From: a virus
Taxonomy: Duplodnaviria > Caudoviricetes
Reading direction: 5' to 3' (one strand)
IMG/VR virus record: IMGVR_UViG_3300049472_000056
Span: 1-34,661 of that record
Length of the DNA: 34,661 nt
In this document: positions 5,606 to 30,193 of the stretch, one piece after another
How the letters are laid out: every line of letters starts with the position of its first letter
Position numbering within the stretch: the stretch's first letter is position 1
Translations under genes and position numbers: made by a program
The notes under the pieces: generated by a model
Database searches by the model: none
Told to the model about the DNA's origin: nothing
What the model saw: only the letters and a program-made list of their open reading frames with translations

Positions 5606-5955
5606 AATTCTATCACTTTGCCGTTACGTACTTCGCGGAAGGTGTACAAATCGCCATATAGCGATAGGAATAGCTTCAGCTTTATTTCGTAAACCGGTGT
5701 TCGCATGCCCTTCACGTCCTCAATGATCCACTTGCACTTCTCTTTATATTGAAAGTCCGCCACGTAATGAATGGCGCGGATACCCTTGCCGTGGTAGCGG
5801 AACTTCTCTAGTAGAACGAACTTTGGTTGCAGCGTTAACTCGCTGATCTTACCGGCCTTCTCTGAGAGAATCAGGGCCATATACCGCTGTGACTCAGCCT
5901 TACTGTCGAACTTCACACTACCAATGGTGGTTGGCTTGGCATTATACTTATGCAT
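5602..5955 (-). CDS. DUF1064-family PD-(D/E)XK nuclease (putative Holliday junction resolvase)
   Basis: KYNAK...FDSKAE...LQPKF...YVADFQY...IEDVKG.RT.VY.IK.KL. Confidence 0.88.
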   Translation of the reverse strand: MHKYNAKPTTIGSVKFDSKAESQRYMALILSEKAGKISELTLQPKFVLLEKFRYHGKGIRAIHYVADFQYKEKCKWIIEDVKGMRTPVYEIKLKLFLSLYGDLYTFREVRNGKVIEL

Positions 5956-5992
5956 TACAGCCGCCCCAATTCCAGCAACTTCCGCTCAACTC

Positions 5993-6024
5993 TGTGCATC
6001 TCCTCATCAGGGGGGAGATGCACA
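5993..6024. other. 11-bp perfect stem-loop in the leader of the leftward operon
   Basis: TGTGCATCTCC-10 nt-GGAGATGCACA. Confidence 0.55.
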
Positions 6025-6079
6025 CATAGGTGGGGACGGTGTTGTGCATAGAGCGTTTCCCAAGTGGTGCGATAGGCGG

Positions 6080-6107
6080 ACAGTAGTCAAGTGCATGCAG
6101 GTGTCAA
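6080..6107 (-). promoter_or_regulatory. Leftward early promoter
   Basis: Minus strand TTGACA-16 bp-TACTGT. Confidence 0.65.
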
Positions 6108-6114
6108 GTGCCTA

Positions 6115-6142
6115 TTGTCAACTGACCAATCGGCGCTAGGCT
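6115..6142 (+). promoter_or_regulatory. Rightward early promoter (leaderless transcript)
   Basis: TTGTCA-16 bp-TAGGCT, with 6 nt to the ATG at 6149. Confidence 0.6.
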
Positions 6143-6148
6143 ATTGCC

Positions 6149-6316
6149 ATGAATATCAAAAAATCTTTCACTGATTCTGGCCTCTCACTAGCACGGCTAG
6201 CACGTCTATCTGGCCTGTCTAAGTCTACCGTTCAGCGGTGTATTCGCCACAACCGACTGCCGCAAAATGCTGAAAGCCGCTGTCTTTTCCGTGAAGCACT
6301 GGGGGTCAAGGGGTAG
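6149..6316 (+). CDS. Cro/XRE-like HTH regulator (55 aa, below ORF-track cutoff)
   Basis: Manual translation MNIKKSFTDSGLSLARLARLSGLSKSTVQRCIRHNRLPQNAESRCLFREALGVKG shows a classic XRE HTH. Confidence 0.8.
   Translation: MNIKKSFTDSGLSLARLARLSGLSKSTVQRCIRHNRLPQNAESRCLFREALGVKG

Positions 6317-8112: not shown

Positions 8113-8123
<11 letters not shown>
7803..8123 (+). CDS. Conserved phage protein (DUF6948-like, Sm-like beta fold)
   Basis: IIIADRGWVFVG...NAKNIRKWGTSKGLGELINGP; family recognised from memory only. Confidence 0.7.
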
Positions 8124-8430
<307 letters not shown>

Positions 8431-8556: not shown

Positions 8557-9357
8557 ATGATCATTAAAAACCAGCCAGCAGAAGAATACCACGCGCACCC
8601 AGCGATTGGCAGCACAACGGCAAAGCTCGCATTGAAAAGCATGCAGCTCTTCCGGGATCGCCAGACAGGGGTCTACGCGGTAGAGGATAAGGCCCACTTC
8701 CAAGTTGGACGCTTGGCCCACATGATGCTCCTGGAACCTGCCCGGTTCGCTGAGTGCGTAACCACCAGCGGACCTATCAATGAGCGCACCGGTGCGCCGT
8801 ACGGACGGGACACCAAGGCTTACGCAGAATGGCAGAAGGCCAATCCCGGCCTAACCGTTGTCGATCCATGGCTCCACACCGCATTCCTGCGCATGCCGGA
8901 AGAGGTTCGCACCGTGCTCAAGGGCGGCGAAACGGAAGTTTCAGCCTACCAGGAGATTGACGGGCTCCCGGTCAAGTGCCGGTCCGATCACCTGCGCGGA
9001 ACCGTTATCACTGATCTGAAGACCATTAAGGACGTAGACGACTGGCCACGAGAGATCCGCCGCCGTGCTTACTGGTTTAGCGCGGCATGGTACCGGCGCG
9101 TGATGCTTGCCGAAACCGGAAAGCCGCACTCGTTCCGCCTGATCTTTATGGAAAAGAACGCTCCTTGGCGGTGGCGCATCGTGGATCTTATGGCGGATTA
9201 CTCGCTATATGGTGACGCGAAGGTGGAGCGGGTCATGTCCGACATCCGATATGCGAACAAATACCAGGACTGGAGCGACACTGGGGACGTGATGCAGATT
9301 GCCGAGCTTCCCGAGTTTATGGACGAGAGCGACGACGAAGAAGAGGAGGTAGCTTAA
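8557..9357 (+). CDS. RecE/exonuclease VIII-like PD-(D/E)XK nuclease (DUF3799-like)
   Basis: EEYHAHPAIGST...GRLAHMMLLEP...KCRSD...ITDLKT...Y..SAAWY...F.LIFMEK.AP; acidic tail. Confidence 0.88.
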   Translation: MIIKNQPAEEYHAHPAIGSTTAKLALKSMQLFRDRQTGVYAVEDKAHFQVGRLAHMMLLEPARFAECVTTSGPINERTGAPYGRDTKAYAEWQKANPGLTVVDPWLHTAFLRMPEEVRTVLKGGETEVSAYQEIDGLPVKCRSDHLRGTVITDLKTIKDVDDWPREIRRRAYWFSAAWYRRVMLAETGKPHSFRLIFMEKNAPWRWRIVDLMADYSLYGDAKVERVMSDIRYANKYQDWSDTGDVMQIAELPEFMDESDDEEEEVA

Positions 9358-9359
9358 TC

Positions 9360-9773
9360 ATGCAACACTACAAAGAGCTCCTTGACCCCGGTGTCTTTGT
9401 CGGACCCCAGGACTTTACAACGGACAAGACCATTACCATCAGCCGAGTGGTACGCGAGGACATGCCCAAGCGCGATGGTGAAGACAAGACCAGCTCGCCC
9501 ATGATGTACTTCTCGCATGCTGGCACCGAATTGCCACGCAAGTACAAGGTGCCAAAGTCGGTTCTTTACGGGCTTTCGTTACTTTACGGTACCGACATTG
9601 ATCAGTGGGTTGGTAAGAAAGTGACTCTGTTCGCGGCCAAGTGCATGAGCTTTGGCGAGGTGGAAGAGTGTGTGCGCATCCGCTTTCCTGATGATATTGA
9701 TGCCAAGATATTTAAATGGCTGAAGAAACGGAAGTCCAACCGTTCAGCTTACATTCTCAAGGAAACGGCATGA
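9360..9773 (+). CDS. Putative ssDNA-binding/annealing partner of the exonuclease
   Basis: Directly downstream of the RecE-like gene; TITISRV...LYGTDIDQWVGKKVTLF pattern; function inferred from context. Confidence 0.55.
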   Translation: MQHYKELLDPGVFVGPQDFTTDKTITISRVVREDMPKRDGEDKTSSPMMYFSHAGTELPRKYKVPKSVLYGLSLLYGTDIDQWVGKKVTLFAAKCMSFGEVEECVRIRFPDDIDAKIFKWLKKRKSNRSAYILKETA

Positions 9774-9973
9774 CCTACACCTGCCGCTGCGAATCCTGCC
9801 TAAAACCCGCCAAGCAATGCGGCCCGCTGAAGATCCACACAGGACTAGGCGCGGCGGTGTGCCTGGTGTGTCTGCCGAAACCAAACGCGCAACGTATCCA
9901 GGAAGCGCATGTGGCTGAACGGTCGTTGGGGCATAGTTCTTATCGTCGCCAGCAGCGTCAGGCGGTTGCGTGA
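9770..9973 (+). CDS. Small Zn-finger protein
   Basis: CRCESC...CLVC; AAGGA RBS and ATGA overlap. Confidence 0.65.
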   Translation: MTYTCRCESCLKPAKQCGPLKIHTGLGAAVCLVCLPKPNAQRIQEAHVAERSLGHSSYRRQQRQAVA

Positions 9974-9980
9974 TGATGCT

Positions 9981-10074
9981 GCTCAACGTCACCGATCACC
10001 GGGCCGCCGACAAGGAAACCCCATGAACGACGAAAACCACACGACGGCGGCTCCGGTGCGTCGTCTTGTTGGGC
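9981..10074 (-). other. attC-like site A (94 bp)
   Basis: Minus strand: GCCCAAC-AAGAC-GAC(G)CACCGG(A)GCCGCCG...CGGCGGC-CCGGTGATC-GGTGAC-GTTGAGC, i.e. R''/L''/L'/R' with 5/6-nt spacers and two extrahelical bases. Confidence 0.85.
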
Positions 10075-11030
10075 CAGGGATGGAGCGAGGGCAAATGCTA
10101 TCTATCGAACAGGCGATAGACGCCGCTGGCAAAATGAGCCTGCGATCCTTGGCGCAGATATCCATCGTAACCAGCCTATGCCACCACCTGCGAGAGTCAG
10201 GGAAAACCGTGTCACGCCAGAGGAAGCAGCTAGCAGGCCTACAACGTGACCGCAGTATGACATGCAACAACTGCCGTGGCCAGATGCTGCGCAGCCAGAT
10301 CCATATCAACGTCACGACCTGCGCGAAATGTGGAATGCGGCATGTGTGGCCCAACGCCCAGGGGTCACTGGACGCGCCAGTTGATCAATCCGCAGGCAAT
10401 CAAGGTGATACGCGTTCCAGTGTATCACCTTGTTGGGCCATTGCCTTGCTGTCAGCTCTCCTGGCAGGAGCGCCAGGCAGTGTCTTCGCTGGCACCGGAC
10501 AGCAGGACGCCTTTAGTGCGGTTCGCGCCACGGGCCACGTCGTAGGTGTACCACTGGCTGGACCAGTGGCAGGCGCACGCGGCCTCACGGGCAGCGCGGA
10601 CGCCCGCGAACAGGACCGGCTTGCCGGCGTGCGGGCCGTCTTGGTAGCAGATCACGCCGCCAGTGTTGTCGGCGCAGCCGCTTCCGCAGATCGTGACCGT
10701 CTGGTCACCGATCACTGCCGAGGCGTAGGCGCCCAGGCCGTTACTGCCGAGGACGCGGGCGACGTACAGCCCGGCTGGCCGGCCACCCTTGGCTCCGTTC
10801 GCGGCGCTGGTCTTGGCCTTCTTGGCGGTCTTGATTTTACCCAGGGCGACGGCGGCGGGGTTCTTCTTGGTCTGGCTCACGACAGGCTCCTTGCAGCGTT
10901 GCTGCGTTGGTGTTGTGATGGGAACCCTAACCAAGCGTTAGGTTTGTCAATTGGATTCCTGGGGCACGCGGGTTTGCGGACCAACGCCAAAGATAACCGG
11001 GCGGCACAAGAGATAAATCCCCATGAGTAA
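10023..11030 (+). CDS. Cassette A ORF: Zn-ribbon protein (first ~110 aa), frame stays open through cassette B
   Basis: AAGGA RBS and ATG inside the attC A loop; CNNC...CAKC; the part beyond about 10440 is antisense to another gene and may be non-functional readthrough. Confidence 0.55.
   Translation: MNDENHTTAAPVRRLVGPGMERGQMLSIEQAIDAAGKMSLRSLAQISIVTSLCHHLRESGKTVSRQRKQLAGLQRDRSMTCNNCRGQMLRSQIHINVTTCAKCGMRHVWPNAQGSLDAPVDQSAGNQGDTRSSVSPCWAIALLSALLAGAPGSVFAGTGQQDAFSAVRATGHVVGVPLAGPVAGARGLTGSADAREQDRLAGVRAVLVADHAASVVGAAASADRDRLVTDHCRGVGAQAVTAEDAGDVQPGWPATLGSVRGAGLGLLGGLDFTQGDGGGVLLGLAHDRLLAALLRWCCDGNPNQALGLSIGFLGHAGLRTNAKDNRAAQEINPHE
10349..10438 (-). other. attC-like site B (90 bp)
   Basis: Plus strand: GCCCAAC-GCCCAGG-GGTCACTGGACGCG...CGCGT(T)CCAGTG(T)ATC-ACCTT-GTTGGGC. 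Confidence 0.82.
10452..10880 (-). CDS. Cassette B gene: basic N-terminal KNPAAVALG...NGAKGGRP motif protein (putative DNA-binding)
   Basis: AAGGAG RBS 7 nt before GTG at 10880; the stop lies 13 nt before the R'' box of attC B, which is the canonical cassette layout. Confidence 0.75.
   Translation of the reverse strand: MSQTKKNPAAVALGKIKTAKKAKTSAANGAKGGRPAGLYVARVLGSNGLGAYASAVIGDQTVTICGSGCADNTGGVICYQDGPHAGKPVLFAGVRAAREAACACHWSSQWYTYDVARGANRTKGVLLSGASEDTAWRSCQES
10924..10950 (-). promoter_or_regulatory. Cassette-internal promoter with palindromic operator
   Basis: TTGACA-15 bp-TAGGGT with CCTAAC-N5-GTTAGG overlapping the spacer and -10. Confidence 0.55.
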
Positions 11031-11068
11031 ACTATCGATTGCCGCTCCGGTTAATCACCTTGTTGGGC
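10979..11068 (-). other. attC-like site C (90 bp)
   Basis: Plus strand: GACCAAC-GCCAAA-GATAACCGGGCGGCA...TGCCGC(T)CCGGTT(A)ATC-ACCTT-GTTGGGC. Confidence 0.85.
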
Positions 11069-11099
11069 TGCGTTTAATTTAACCACGAAGGAATGAAAT

Positions 11100-11489
11100 A
11101 TGGAAAATGAGCACGTCAATTTCAGAGCTATGTGGGCGGAAGCTCACAAAGCCGAAAGATCACAGCGGGAGGAATGGAATAAATTAACCGACTGGGTTCG
11201 ATTGATCGATTATGATTTAATCAGAGGAGCTAGGTTTCTTGTCCGTTTACCAGGGCAATTACCACACATGGCCTACAGAGATTTATTCGGATATTGGGGG
11301 ATTGTATCTGGAGACATCTGGCCATTAAGGGTGACTGATGAGCACCAATTACATTTTATTGATCAGCAGCCCAACGCACCAGTTGACTGGACCGGCGCCA
11401 GCGACTCAACCCACAAACCGAAAGACGTTGCCGCCGGTTCCACGTCAAACGCCTTGTTGGGCGGATTTAATGTCGAGGAGAAGCCGTGA
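11100..11489 (+). CDS. Cassette C ORF, hypothetical; reads through attC D
   Basis: AAGGA RBS; visibly AT-richer than flanks; C-terminal ~35 aa encoded by attC D. Confidence 0.7.
   Translation: MENEHVNFRAMWAEAHKAERSQREEWNKLTDWVRLIDYDLIRGARFLVRLPGQLPHMAYRDLFGYWGIVSGDIWPLRVTDEHQLHFIDQQPNAPVDWTGASDSTHKPKDVAAGSTSNALLGGFNVEEKP
11369..11462 (-). other. attC-like site D (94 bp)
   Basis: Plus strand: GCCCAAC-GCACCA-GTTGACTGGACCGGCG...CGCCGGT(T)CCA(C)GTC(A)AAC-GCCTT-GTTGGGC. Confidence 0.85.
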
Positions 11490-11809
11490 TGTCCTTTCTG
11501 GAAATACATGCATCTGATTCCCTGGAAAAGTGGAATGCGCAAATGTCAGAATTGATCGATAGCGGCGTGTTTGGCGAACACAGGCCCAACGACTGCCTAT
11601 TTTGTCGAGCGCAGAGGATTGTGGAGTTAATACAGGATTTGAGAGATAAGATGCATCCGCCCAACAGCTCAATGGGTGGATCCGGTAATATCACGTCGGA
11701 TGTGGATCCGACGCATATCACGCAGCAGACCCCTGGAAACACCGGTGATTCCAGCCATACATCCGGTGGATTGCGACAGGGTACGAATATTGCGCGGGGC
11801 GAATCGTGA
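11486..11809 (+). CDS. Cassette D ORF, hypothetical (CxxC); reads through the attI-like site
   Basis: GAGGAG RBS, overlap with the upstream stop, CLFC motif. Confidence 0.65.
   Translation: MMSFLEIHASDSLEKWNAQMSELIDSGVFGEHRPNDCLFCRAQRIVELIQDLRDKMHPPNSSMGGSGNITSDVDPTHITQQTPGNTGDSSHTSGGLRQGTNIARGES
11659..11722 (-). other. attI-like site
   Basis: Minus strand ACCCATT-GAGCT-GTTGGGC (degenerate L box, 5-nt spacer, R box), preceded by two direct repeats GTGGATCCG-N3/4-ATATCACG. Confidence 0.55.
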
Positions 11810-12075
11810 CCGACGCCTGCCCCTCCTGCGGTGTCCCCTACGTCGATCACCTCGGCCTGATCGGCACCTGCGCCGATCTGCTGGCCGCGCGGCGCGAGCT
11901 GCTGCGGCTGCAGGCTGGCCCGGTGGTCGTGCTTCCGGCTGATCTTGCCGACGCCTACGTGGTGGCGGTGCGGGTCCTCGAATTCCGCTGCGGTGGTGCC
12001 AGCGACGGCGACCAGGTGGCCCGCGAGCGTCAGGCGCTGGCGGCGGTGCAGAAGGCTGCGCATGCGGCGGGCTGA
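11806..12075 (+). CDS. Hypothetical phage protein (CxxC...H...C)
   Basis: CPSCGVPYVDHLGLIGTC; GTGA overlap; high GC3. Confidence 0.7.
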   Translation: MTDACPSCGVPYVDHLGLIGTCADLLAARRELLRLQAGPVVVLPADLADAYVVAVRVLEFRCGGASDGDQVARERQALAAVQKAAHAAG

Positions 12076-12180
12076 CGATGGCGACCTAATCGCCGGACTC
12101 CGTGCGATATGGCCCTGGCGTGTTTTCGATAGGCCTAGGGATATTGTGCGGTTGTTGTTGTGGCGGTTGCGGGCTGGGGA

Positions 12181-14244
12181 TTAGGGGATGGCAATAGTGA
12201 CCCGAGATTCGATCGTTGACCAGACCTGTGCTTGCGGTGCCAGCCAGATTCCCAGATGCGTATTCAGGCTGTCCTCGCCTACTCCTGTATTGGCCGCTGC
12301 CATGCGGTGAATGACGAATTCTGCCTGGTCAATTGCAGCGTCTTCGCGCCACGGGCGCGAGCCGCTGGCCAAGTTGTTTGCTTGGAAATGCGATTTTCGC
12401 GAAACGGGCTTGCCGCTGTCCCAGCCAGGGAGCTGCACCCGCCAGCGGTAACCGGCCACGCTGGCCCACGCGGCGCAATACGCCGGCGTCCCGCTGACGG
12501 TCGACGCTACGCCGGTGACCTGCCAGGGTTCAGTTGATGCGGCCACGTAATCGCACACCCAGGTGCCAGATAGCGTCGGCTGCGAAGAGGCGCGGAACAG
12601 ATAATCCCCCTTCGACCAACCGAAGTGGTCGACCGGGACTGCATCCGCGCTCGATGGCAGCAGATGCTGTTTCGGCGCATCGAACGGGTAGACCCGAGGC
12701 AGGCATGGGGTTGGCAGCAGAAAGTTGAAGGCGCCCCCGATTCCGCGCGAAGAATAGAGAAATTGCCAGGCATCGAATGACGTGGCCGGTGCTACTTTCC
12801 TGCGGCTCAAAAGCTGATAGCGCATGCCAGGAATAGCGGGGATGCTGGTAGGCACAGGGATCGACAGGGACACGCCTGGTCCTGCACCGCCGGGGAGAGA
12901 TCCCGCAACCGGCGTCGTAATCGGGACCAATCCCACGCCAGCGTCGAAATATCCCCAGCACACCTCAAAGTCCGTTGCCTCGTTTGCCGGCGCCCAATAA
13001 ACGTCTTGCGCCACTGCCTGGTCAAGCTCGTAAAAACACGGGATAGGGCGCGGTATCTGTATGTTGAAAGTCGGGTCAGCGTCCCATCGCGAGGTCGCAA
13101 AAAACGCATGTAAAAACCCGGCACAGGCGCCGTCTTCTCGCCACGCCGTTTCATACCTGGACGCGCCGGATAGCCCGGTGATCTGATACCCTGCTGTGGG
13201 AACTCGCCGGGATGCGGCGCGAACGTATCCGGCCGCCGGAGCTGATCCAGCCGCCGTCCGTCGCGTGAGGAGCGGAATGGCGCGGCGGTTGACGAAGAGG
13301 CCTGCATTCGGCGCTGCTGCGGCGCAGGATTCAGACGTATAGACGACCCGTTGATTGCCAATCGGAGCGGGAAAATCGACATCGAACGCGAAGTCCGCAA
13401 AAGGCGCATCAGCCTCTAAAACAGCGGCCAGGACGTACGATATCTTGCTGAGGTCGCGATCTTCCCACGACGCAATTCGTTTCCAGCGATGCGAGGCGCT
13501 GGTCGATCCGCCCACGGCGTATTTGGTGAGCCTGGCATAGGCACTTCCGATCAGCCCCGCGACGGCATCCGTTGGGGTCATCTGTCCGCTACTGGTGCCG
13601 CCAAAGCTGACCTGGAAATCAATCGCGATTCCCGTCGTCGAGTCGACGTTGACGCGCACGACCTTGCCAAACACCGGGTACGACTCGCTTCCGACCAGGT
13701 AATACCAGGGGAGTGCCACCGGTGCGATGGTCGACCTGTCCGCAGAAAAAGCGATCAGCGGCGCAGTCTGCGGCAGCGCCGTCAAAAGATTTGCTTGCGA
13801 ACCGGGCCATGTTGCAAATGGGTAGGTCACTAAATCATCATCAAAACCAGATGCGAGCGAACTCGATACCGGCATCAGCGAAGGCAAATCATGGACCGCT
13901 GGCCCGTAGCGATAGGGCCGATTGATCAGGCCAACCGGAGACCCCGGGGCGGCAGACGTTTTGATTTTTCCGCCGGCATTGCCGATCCACAGGCCCGCTG
14001 CTGAATAGGACGTCACACCGGGAATTGCTGCAGGCGTCTCGTTGATTCTGCGATCCGGCACGAAGAGCGTATTGACCGAGTGATCAAAGCTCCGGCCATT
14101 GTACCCGGGGGCCGGTGCGCGCTCGACGAGATAGCCCGAGTCGAAACGAGAGCCCCCAAACTCCATCCCTGGCGGTGTCCAAAGGATTAAATCCGTCGTC
14201 CAGCCGCCCCAAAAGGTATTGAATGTCGTGGTCTCGAATGCCAT
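12181..14244 (-). CDS. Putative tail tip/receptor-binding protein
   Basis: Last gene of the late operon; 687 aa, beta-rich and rich in Trp/Pro/Gly. Confidence 0.55.
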   Translation of the reverse strand: MAFETTTFNTFWGGWTTDLILWTPPGMEFGGSRFDSGYLVERAPAPGYNGRSFDHSVNTLFVPDRRINETPAAIPGVTSYSAAGLWIGNAGGKIKTSAAPGSPVGLINRPYRYGPAVHDLPSLMPVSSSLASGFDDDLVTYPFATWPGSQANLLTALPQTAPLIAFSADRSTIAPVALPWYYLVGSESYPVFGKVVRVNVDSTTGIAIDFQVSFGGTSSGQMTPTDAVAGLIGSAYARLTKYAVGGSTSASHRWKRIASWEDRDLSKISYVLAAVLEADAPFADFAFDVDFPAPIGNQRVVYTSESCAAAAPNAGLFVNRRAIPLLTRRTAAGSAPAAGYVRAASRRVPTAGYQITGLSGASRYETAWREDGACAGFLHAFFATSRWDADPTFNIQIPRPIPCFYELDQAVAQDVYWAPANEATDFEVCWGYFDAGVGLVPITTPVAGSLPGGAGPGVSLSIPVPTSIPAIPGMRYQLLSRRKVAPATSFDAWQFLYSSRGIGGAFNFLLPTPCLPRVYPFDAPKQHLLPSSADAVPVDHFGWSKGDYLFRASSQPTLSGTWVCDYVAASTEPWQVTGVASTVSGTPAYCAAWASVAGYRWRVQLPGWDSGKPVSRKSHFQANNLASGSRPWREDAAIDQAEFVIHRMAAANTGVGEDSLNTHLGIWLAPQAQVWSTIESRVTIAIP

Positions 14245-29236: not shown

Positions 29237-30193
29237 AACGTCTTCTCCAGTTGGATTGTTTGAAAGTAATGTAGCGGACCCTTCGACAACAGTTGCCGTG
29301 GTGCTAATGCTACCTTTGGGCTTCTTGGTGCGGTCCATTGAAGACACGACCGATTCCCAGGATGCGATGGAATCCACCAATCCGATTCGAATGCCTTCCG
29401 TGGCCGTGAACACCTCGCCGGTTGCAGCCTGGTCCATTTGTGACTGATCCATGCCCCGTCCAGATGCAACGGCGTCGGCGAAGAGCTGGTGGAGATCGGC
29501 AACAACCTTTTGCACACTGGCCAGCTGCTCAGATGAAAGTGCCTCGTTTGCAGTGCCGGGGGCCTTGAGTCCAACCGAGCGAACCACATGGACCTTATAG
29601 CCGGCCTTCTCCTGATTCTTGGAGGCGTCTACCAGTGCCATGATGACGCCGATGGAGCCTACCAAGGAACCGGGGGCAGACGCGATGACCTGATCGGCCT
29701 GCGATGCCAGCCAGTAACCAGCGGATGCGGCCAGACCGTCAACGAATGCGATTACCTGCTTGCCGGATTCAGAGGCAGCACGGATAGCCGCGCCAGTCTC
29801 AGCGGTGCCAGCAACCGACCCGCCCGGCGAGTCAATGCGCAGAATAATGCGGGAAATGTTGGGGTTTCCTGCGGCTTTGGCCAAGTCGGCTTGGATGCTT
29901 TCCGCACTGCGTCCCTGATCCTGGCAAGCGCCGTTGATCTGGTCGGAGTAGCGAGCAAGAACGCCACGAACCGGGATGATTGCAGTATCGCCACGGATTT
30001 GCATCACAGGCTCGCCAGCGGATCCCATGTCCTCCATGCCGAATGCGGCGCGATGGCCTTGAGCCTCGCGGATCTGCTCGGGAGTAGCACGGATACCAGC
30101 ATCGTGATTCTCAACGATGCGAATCAGCGAATCAAACACGCCGGGGATGATTGCCCAGTGTTGTGCAGAGAGGAAACGAAGGGCTGGGCTCAT
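28808..30193 (-). CDS. S49 (SppA-like) prohead protease with C-terminal scaffold, lambda gpC-like
   Basis: IDSPGGSV, AASAGYWLASQA, VGSIGV, GLVD motifs. Confidence 0.93.
   Translation of the reverse strand: MSPALRFLSAQHWAIIPGVFDSLIRIVENHDAGIRATPEQIREAQGHRAAFGMEDMGSAGEPVMQIRGDTAIIPVRGVLARYSDQINGACQDQGRSAESIQADLAKAAGNPNISRIILRIDSPGGSVAGTAETGAAIRAASESGKQVIAFVDGLAASAGYWLASQADQVIASAPGSLVGSIGVIMALVDASKNQEKAGYKVHVVRSVGLKAPGTANEALSSEQLASVQKVVADLHQLFADAVASGRGMDQSQMDQAATGEVFTATEGIRIGLVDSIASWESVVSSMDRTKKPKGSISTTATVVEGSATLLSNNPTGEDVMSLIKQAKAIADAHPAQAALVWEMAASDHTEEQILAAVNAKEVEAKSAADAAELARLKAEIEEMRAKVIAADTAKAAAELAAIEAKAKADALEAHAKGGQAGNTIKSDAGEATVKKISRDEFNSNQAAYVADIRKGLVVVAD

What the first reader, a model, noticed from the sequence alone, without database searches (positions are those of the whole stretch)
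9971..11809. Antisense attC sites re-used as translational coupling modules
Seen: the attC sites face opposite to the early transcript, yet at all five junctions the crossover AAC is read in frame as Asn (LLN, WPN, RTN, QPN, PPN). Cassette ORFs therefore lack their own stop and finish in the next site. A 17-aa mini-ORF (9973-10026, MMLLNVTDHRAADKETP) is coupled by TGATG to the upstream gene and stops in the attC A loop, overlapping AAGGA...ATG at 10023. The attC C loop likewise holds a stop (11028-11030) and an overlapping ATG (11023; MSKLSIAAPVNHLVGLRLI) in the same frame as A (AAPVRRLVG). Inference: a conserved frame grammar lets cassettes be shuffled in any order while ribosomes traverse the hairpins, and it swaps protein C-termini. 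This inverts the usual integron layout.
Basis: partly seen in the sequence, partly recalled or inferred. Interest (0 to 1): 0.8.

Follow-up and report, generated by a model that had tools for sequence, protein, structure and literature searches.

The report
Backwards integron cassettes in phage operon
A phage carries four integron-type gene cassettes inside an early operon, three with their genes on the strand opposite to the bacterial layout and reading across the predicted DNA swap point in one frame (an asparagine codon), so that reshuffling likely changes only a protein's last residues and likely keeps the operon translatable.

Summary
Largely real, with corrections. Four attC hairpins (9981-11462) have recombinogenic-strand geometry on the coding strand. 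The fifth junction (11658-11665) is not an attC but a half-site next to an attI-like element also seen at other phage array ends. The 'RTN' junction is a shadow frame: cassette 2 holds a real gene on the other strand, in normal orientation.

Backwards polarity is general in phage: 165 of 194 viral sites code on the bottom strand, against 35 of 162 in bacterial genomes. The Asn frame is a sub-rule: 42 of 49 read-through genes use it (22 of 23 clusters for CAAC sites; codon-usage null about 0.6), but 116 of the 165 stop in or just before the core box. Tail swapping is supported: a 93% relative of cassette 3 has another tail right after Pro-Asn, and site D's tail occurs on an unrelated protein. 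Start-stop overlap is only modestly enriched (14 of 39 against 14 of 78). No integrase in this record; recombination and translation are untested.

Not found in seven literature searches; this scan has noted the layout in at least 32 other genomes. New variant of a phage CALIN.

The parts
9770..9973 (+). Last backbone gene before the array (67 aa); its TGA overlaps the mini-ORF ATG (TGATG)
   Evidence: no family hit
9973..10026 (+). 17-aa mini-ORF crossing the site A crossover as Asn and stopping in loop A (ATGA overlap); an alternative open frame from ATG 9909 also crosses here
9981..10074 (+). attC A, bottom-strand geometry on +; predicted crossover AA|C 9986/9987; bulged bases C and T; SD-like AAGGA 10012-10016 and ATG 10023 in the loop
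10023..10355 (+). Cassette 1 gene body (111 aa to the Asn); with no stop in site B the frame runs on to 11030 (335 aa)
   Evidence: distant relatives of both halves, one ending Pro-Pro-Asn plus an attC-like tail (P0021)
10349..10438 (+). attC B; first bulge is T; a competing hairpin in the 3' arm lowers the predicted recombinogenic fold (pfold 0.004)
10452..10877 (-). Cassette 2 gene in normal orientation (141-142 aa; KNPAAVALG-type basic N-terminus), stop 14 nt before R'' of site B; AAGGAG SD-like sequence upstream
10924..10950 (-). TTGACA hexamer and a palindrome upstream of the cassette 2 gene; possible promoter and operator (no -10 box passed the scan)
10979..11068 (+). attC C; first bulge is A; holds TAA 11028-11030 and ATG 11023
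11023..11082 (+). 19-aa mini-ORF from loop C, ending 17 nt before the cassette 3 start
11100..11489 (+). Cassette 3 gene (129 aa) reading through all of site D; TGA 11487-11489 overlaps ATG 11489
   Evidence: relative P0010 has another tail after Pro-Asn
11369..11462 (+). attC D (one extra base beside L''); its tail peptide occurs after an Asn on an unrelated protein (P0011)
11489..11809 (+). Cassette 4 gene (106 aa) reading across the end junction as Asn; stop overlaps the next gene's GTG (GTGA)
11659..11725 (+). Array end: R' box of cassette 4, 5-nt spacer, inverted box and two TGGATCC..ATATCACG direct repeats; attI-like site (inferred)
   Evidence: the same element ends arrays in L057, L127, L058 and L104
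11806..12075 (+). First backbone gene after the array (89 aa)

Best explanation
This is a four-cassette integron-type array in a phage early operon, with three cassette genes written on the attC bottom strand and crossing the predicted AA|C swap point as an Asn codon, so that an integron integrase, likely the host's, would exchange cassettes while changing only protein tails and likely leaving the operon translated. Shown: hairpin geometry and polarity; in-frame AAC; overlapping stops and starts at 9973, 10023, 11489 and 11806; cassettes shared between phages that begin and end at AAC; tail swaps in relatives of cassette 3 and site D. Inferred: each unit runs from the C of one AAC to the AA of the next, so the hairpin sits in front of its gene and often carries its start; the element at 11659-11725 is the attI-like entry site, and with all cassettes removed its two halves form one 52-codon ORF overlapping both neighbouring genes; selection against untranslated gaps and hairpin stalls upstream of other early genes keeps two compatible gene endings, a stop at or just before the R' box (the majority) or read-through as Asn (mainly CAAC-type sites, as here). 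Cassette 2 is an exception, a normally oriented cassette whose antisense frame happens to be open or has been kept open.
For: Geometry and zero false positives. Polarity control: intI lies on my 'bottom' strand downstream of the array in 11 of 11 bacterial-genome loci, and 102 of 162 bacterial sites code on the top strand, against 24 of 194 viral sites (165:24 against 35:102, p = 9e-31 without correction for relatedness). Sample chosen by IntI rather than by attC pattern: 22 of 27 classifiable sites code on the bottom strand, 6 read through as Asn and none in another frame; 0 sites in 31 loci of other tyrosine recombinases. Frame: 34 of 40 viral CAAC sites have the Asn frame as the longest open frame (1 other, 5 none), against 16/12/12 of 77 in metagenome contigs; 22 of 23 clusters, p = 1.3e-4 against 0.6. 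Mobility: L121/L047 share 1344 nt from one AAC to the next; L121/L151 and L074/L126 diverge at AA|C. P0010, P0011 and P0021. Loop SD + ATG + ORF of 45 aa or more: 37 of 168 viral, 3 of 167 genome, 0 of 96 metagenome sites. ATGA overlaps 14 of 39 against 14 of 78. Small ORFs across attI1 and attC aid downstream translation, and untranslated stretches lower downstream mRNA (passages of PMC8876359 and PMC11511950).
Against: No tyrosine recombinase in this record, which is estimated 45% complete; IntI over the cut-off in 2 of 50 array-bearing records and in 0 of the 9 that are at least 90% complete. Folding energy does not favour the + strand (A -21.0 against -20.5, D -21.7 against -24.2; pfold 0.19/0.66 and 0.11/0.14). 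Site B folds poorly and supplies no stop. In 3 of 9 shared-cassette pairs the same body sits behind a different hairpin, with the break near G|TT. Stops inside attC are not Asn-frame specific. The looser coupling test is weak (16 of 42 against 21 of 84). At least one Asn count (L542 = L564) is a shadow frame in a canonical integron, so the counts hold false positives. Carvalho 2024 found that attC removal changed downstream expression in a minority of cases.
Confidence: 0.6

Rival explanations
1. The frame rule is a by-product of how cassettes form, not a coupling device: attC sites were captured at gene 3' ends (at TAA-C stops or at in-frame AAC codons) and are merely tolerated; overlaps reflect ordinary phage compaction.
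For: CAAC is in the Asn frame 54-59% of the time in GC-rich viral ORFs anyway; stops inside attC are not frame-specific; 24 of 39 Asn read-throughs have no overlapping start; most phage genes stop at or before the box.
Against: 42 of 49 read-throughs, and 22 of 23 clusters, exceed the codon null; loop SD + ATG is nearly confined to viral sites; own R'/R'' pairs are complementary in cassettes 1, 3 and 4 (7 of 7) and 2 (6 of 7).
Confidence: 0.22
2. The integrase recombines these sites on the other strand, or on both. The layout is then gene-then-attC as usual, with flipped bulges; hairpins travel with the upstream gene and N-terminal leaders, not tails, are swapped.
For: Energies do not favour the bulged strand; L056/L116 (twice) and L143/L144 re-pair hairpins and bodies near G|TT; some attC sites recombine on either strand (Nivina 2016 passages); the first bulge is C, T or A here, not G.
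Against: Four pairs are alike from AAC onward and six diverge at the next AAC; P0010 and P0011 break at the Asn; the array ends in a lone R' box on the bottom-strand side; a C bulge is common in normally oriented bacterial sites (78 C, 73 G).
Confidence: 0.13
3. The hairpins are inert relics or chance inverted repeats, and the frames are coincidental.
For: No integrase in the record; no variant junction among the contigs of the one run that holds this DNA (it may be the source, and contigs drop rare variants).
Against: Zero detector hits in shuffles; four intact sites; same family in bacterial integrons beside intI; relatives of the window's cassette and site in other arrangements.
Confidence: 0.05

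Closest known systems
CALINs (clusters of attC sites lacking an integrase) in phage genomes, Qi et al. 2023, PMC9892861 (read: parts 2-3 of 7, passages, supplement part 1 of 2; figures and the Dryad annotation file not seen)
   Same: attC cluster in a phage without intI; five of six tested phage sites recombined with IntI1.
   Different: TJE1 is in normal polarity. The text I read does not describe genes on the bottom strand or reading frames; 'opposite' and 'antisense' do not occur. Their P12002L attC1 has its bottom strand on the coding strand; they noted only 'divergent directions', and that site was the one not verified.
Integron gene cassettes and attC sites of mobile and sedentary chromosomal integrons (Nivina et al. 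2016, PMC5027507, passages; Cury et al. 2016, PMC4889954, passages)
   Same: R'/L'/L''/R'' boxes, AAC crossover triplet, two bulges near L'', unpaired spacer, variable loop.
   Different: Genes lie on the bottom strand and are driven by the phage operon; the hairpin precedes its gene. [quoted passage not shown]
ORF-11/ORF-17 of attI1 and short ORFs in attC (review PMC8876359, passages; the primary papers were not seen)
   Same: A short ORF spans the crossover, takes its stop from the inserted cassette and couples translation.
   Different: Those read on the top strand at the first position or in a few sites; here full genes cross on the bottom strand at many junctions.
Inverted-integrase integrons (Treponema and others; Cury 2016 passage)
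   Same: Cassette genes run in the same direction as intI.
   Different: There intI is flipped relative to attC; in L334 and the loci intI keeps its usual place relative to attC and the genes are flipped.

Membership tests
Integron attC site | R' RYYYAAC and R'' GTTRRRY complementary boxes | tested here: met
   AAC/GTT with 6-7 of 7 pairs at all four sites; R'' is GTTGGGC
Integron attC site | L boxes, unpaired central spacer and two extrahelical bases on the L'' arm of one strand | tested here: met
   6-7/5-nt spacers, bulges C, T or A plus T on the + strand; first bulge is never the G of aadA7
Integron attC site | Bottom strand folds more stably than top strand (a tendency) | tested here: inconclusive
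   MFE favours + at A, B, C by 0.5-1.9 kcal/mol and - at D by 2.5; pfold favours - at A and D
Integron attC site | Recombined by IntI at AA|C of the bottom strand | not testable with these tools
   Indirect only: breakpoints in relatives
CALIN | Two or more co-oriented attC sites within 4 kb, no intI nearby | tested here: met
   Four sites in 1.5 kb; no PF00589 match in the record, which is a fragment
Canonical cassette array | Gene on the top strand, upstream of its own attC | tested here: not met
   Met only by cassette 2; cassettes 1, 3 and 4 code on the bottom strand
Complete integron | intI gene next to the array | tested here: not met
   related phage arrays do carry IntI (L334 324 bits, L117 266.7 bits, cut-off 265)
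Complete integron | attI site (R box, 5-nt spacer, L box, direct repeats) | tested here: inconclusive
   Matching anatomy at 11659-11725, shared with four other array ends; not seen beside an intI, function untested
Complete integron | Pc promoter driving the top strand | tested here: inconclusive
   0 promoter-like sites in 9300-12300; the scan covers sigma-70 types only
Inverted-integrase integron | intI flipped relative to attC polarity | tested here: not met
   No intI here; 4 of 4 viral loci have intI in the usual place

The most novel reading that the evidence does not exclude
Phages run their own integron subtype: an attI-like site hidden in a translated leader ORF of the early operon, bottom-strand cassettes with a shared reading-frame convention, and in some lineages a phage-borne IntI. 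Crossovers at AA|C swap C-terminal tails and crossovers at G|TT swap N-terminal leaders, so the operon works as a combinatorial protein-end shuffler and as a place where ordinary phage genes become new cassettes, a direct handle on the open question of how cassettes are made.
Probability: 0.25. Interest if true: 0.88.

Novelty: new variant of a known kind. Interest (0 to 1): 0.72.

Why it matters
Integron models assume promoterless genes on the top strand, ending at their own attC. Here the polarity is reversed as a rule in phages, and the recombination site doubles as coding sequence. If right, phages use integron integrases to reshuffle small early genes without breaking an operon, many short phage 'hypothetical' proteins have attC-derived ends, and cassette finders will assign genes to the wrong site. 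It gives simple tests of strand choice by IntI, of translation through attC and of cassette origin.

Tried and rejected
No close relative of the phage backbone in viral contigs, and only short chance-level matches in cultured phages, so an empty or reordered version of this very locus was not found. No PHROG or Pfam family for the cassette proteins; no Atlas hit for the cassette 2 protein; the word search found no relative of cassette 1 but the full search found 11 weak ones. No Rfam match. No RNA holder listed. The one DNA run laid shows no joints; it may be the source and holds contigs only. My first frame count hid genes that stop at the TAA of the box and was redone. One search used an end-site coordinate off by one, corrected. 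A fixed score threshold left about 40% of viral flanks and most window cassettes unclassified, so a relative six-frame score was used. The relaxed hairpin scan of P12002L printed nothing and my detector missed its two published sites: it does not cover Bacteroidetes-type attC. The idea that the Asn is a mutated TAA was rejected, since that predicts the CAA frame (0 of 35 as longest). No structure or complex was predicted; none bears on the question.
Full report
Setting. The window is a whole 34,661-nt virus record, linear and estimated 45% complete. It encodes terminase, portal, capsid, tail fibre, replication and recombination proteins of a tailed phage. The finding lies at the end of a rightward early operon, behind an exonuclease VIII-like gene. 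No tyrosine recombinase was found in the record (0 of 1; 14 of 14 control genomes matched). The host is unknown; the bacterial hits of the site family are mostly Planctomycetota and Acidobacteriota.

The sites. Four hairpins, A 9981-10074, B 10349-10438, C 10979-11068 and D 11369-11462, read on the + strand as R' box, 6-7-nt spacer, L', 3 bp, loop, bulged T, 3 bp, L'' with a central bulge, 5-nt spacer, GTTGGGC. Bulges on the 3' arm near L'' mark the recombinogenic bottom strand (Nivina 2016, PMC5027507, passages; the aadA7 bottom strand in the Qi supplement shows the same pattern). My detector gave no hit in 346,743 and 401,489 shuffled bases. As a check on polarity, intI lay on the strand I call bottom, downstream of the array, in 11 of 11 bacterial-genome loci, 4 of 4 viral loci and 1 of 3 metagenome loci. 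Energies do not pick a strand: the + strand is lower at A, B and C and higher at D, and site B has a competing fold (pfold 0.004).

The fifth junction. At 11659-11665 there is only an R' box, a perfect partner of D's R''. It is followed by a 5-nt spacer, an inverted box and two direct repeats. The same repeat unit follows a terminal R' box in L057, L127, L058 and L104. I read it as the attI-like entry site; this is inferred, and I did not see it next to an intI. Removing all four cassettes in a script leaves one 52-codon ORF whose start overlaps the upstream stop (TGATG) and whose stop overlaps the downstream start (GTGA). No natural empty version was found.

The reading frames here. Cassettes 1, 3 and 4 carry + strand genes that cross the next AAC as Asn. 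Cassette 2 does not: it holds a minus-strand gene with four relatives at 74-86% identity and more distant ones, in normal orientation, so 'RTN' is its shadow frame. That frame is nonetheless open from 10023 to 11030, so cassette 1 would be read as 335 aa. The ATG in loop C starts only 19 codons. At A a second frame from ATG 9909 is also open. The window thus gives three clean cases, and CAAC falls in the Asn frame 54-59% of the time in GC-rich viral genes anyway, so a larger set was needed.

The larger set. With a codon model, 194 viral sites with enough flank split into 165 bottom-coding, 24 top-coding and 5 unclassified; 162 genome sites into 35, 102 and 25; 93 metagenome sites into 20, 56 and 17. 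Of the 165, 67 stop inside the R' box (64 at its TAA), 49 stop within about 27 nt before it, 42 read through as Asn and 7 in another frame. For CAAC-type sites like those here, the longest open frame is the Asn frame in 34 of 40 viral sites (1 other, 5 none) and in 16 of 77 metagenome sites (12 and 12 other, 37 none). By clusters of loci sharing a 40-mer it is 22 of 23 (p = 1.3e-4 against 0.6). One Asn case, L542, proved to be a shadow frame in a canonical integron. These patterns were derived from the window's sites, so I took a second sample by IntI homology: 19 of 49 IntI loci held sites, 22 of 27 classifiable sites were bottom-coding (9 stop in the box, 7 before it, 6 Asn including the L542 copy, none in another frame), and 31 loci of other tyrosine recombinases held none.

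Starts and coupling. An SD-like sequence with ATG in the loop opening 45 codons or more occurs at 37 of 168 viral, 3 of 167 genome and 0 of 96 metagenome sites; its frame at GTT is 19/13/6, so not locked. Stops inside the site are no commoner in the Asn frame than in the next (24, 25, 14 of 39). A strict ATGA or TGATG overlap follows 14 of 39 Asn read-throughs against 14 of 78 control frames (p = 0.04); a looser test gave 16 of 42 against 21 of 84. Coupling is therefore a tendency, not a rule.

Mobility and tail swapping. L121 and L047 share 1344 nt from one AAC to the next; L121/L151 and L074/L126 are identical up to AA and then carry different hairpins. Of nine shared-cassette pairs that I read, four are alike from AAC on, two have hairpins 86-91% alike, and three have the same body behind a different hairpin, with the break near G|TT. 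For this window, P0010 is 93% identical to the cassette 3 protein up to Pro-Asn and then has another tail, and P0011 is an unrelated protein carrying site D's tail after an Asn. P0021 shares cassette 1's C-terminal domain and ends in Pro-Pro-Asn plus an attC-like tail. These are protein records without DNA context.

The enzyme. IntI passed the cut-off in 2 of 50 array-bearing records and in none of the 9 near-complete ones. L334 is a phage with bottom-strand genes, a terminal R' box and an apparently split intI before the terminase; L117 and L063 carry a divergent IntI (266.7 bits, and 255.3 bits cut by the locus edge). For this phage a host IntI acting in trans is the simplest reading; an intI in the missing part cannot be excluded.

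Mechanism. Shown: geometry, polarity, frames, overlaps, breakpoints in relatives. Inferred: IntI cuts at AA|C; each unit is hairpin first, gene second; because the array sits inside an operon, junctions that keep ribosomes moving are favoured. The review PMC8876359 (passages) describes ORF-11 spanning the attI1 crossover and short ORFs in attC that help downstream translation; Carvalho 2024 (PMC11511950, passages) links poor translation and untranslated stretches to lower downstream mRNA but finds attC itself a minor factor. That a non-template, lagging-strand position would also expose the bottom strand is my speculation from recalled work.

Known and new. Phage CALINs are published (Qi 2023). 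TJE1 is in normal polarity; P12002L attC1 is backwards but the text I read notes only divergent directions. Seven searches listed no paper on bottom-strand phage cassettes or a frame rule; I judged most hits by title and abstract start, subscription papers are largely missing, and the Dryad annotation file of Qi 2023 was not seen. This scan has reported the layout in at least 32 other genomes (8 shown); these are unchecked notes and not support.

Verdict. Observation partly confirmed, interpretation partly supported, new variant of a known kind, interest 0.72.

Noticed in passing
L056 and L116; L143 and L144: The same cassette body sits behind different hairpins, with the break near G|TT; in L056/L116 loop-encoded N-terminal leaders stay in frame with either body. 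Suggests top-strand crossover or conversion between arms.
   Followed up: partly
L117:1918-2994, L063:6527-7579, L558-L561: A divergent group of phage-borne integron integrases (65-100% alike, about 35% to other IntI) downstream of backwards arrays.
   Followed up: partly
L334:1-1945: Phage with backwards cassettes, terminal R' box and an intI split over two frames, directly before the terminase; TAA-stop and Asn junctions in one array.
   Followed up: partly
L088, L091/L098, L068, L102/L103, L122, L133, L064: A second conserved array-end element (TAAC, TTTGA spacer, ATTATC, then GTGATATCC in most), likely another attI type.
   Followed up: no
L054, L102, L037, L117: Cassettes that begin with a non-coding, promoter-like stretch pointing along the bottom strand before a gene.
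   Followed up: no
L337:2039 and 4565: The same gene end occurs twice in one phage with two different attC tails.
   Followed up: partly
L557 (P12002L) 30003-30060: The published attC1 has its bottom strand on the coding strand between two methyltransferase genes.
   Followed up: partly
window 10403-10432: A strong extra hairpin in the 3' arm of site B competes with the attC fold and lies just past the cassette 2 stop; it could end that transcript or lock the cassette.
   Followed up: partly
window 8113-8430: Low-complexity Gly-Tyr-Gly-Asp/Asn repeat ORF (105 aa) in the early operon.
   Followed up: no
window 5955-6150: Intergenic switch between leftward and rightward genes, with an inverted repeat (5973-6044) and a repeated GTCAAGTGC motif.
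   Followed up: no
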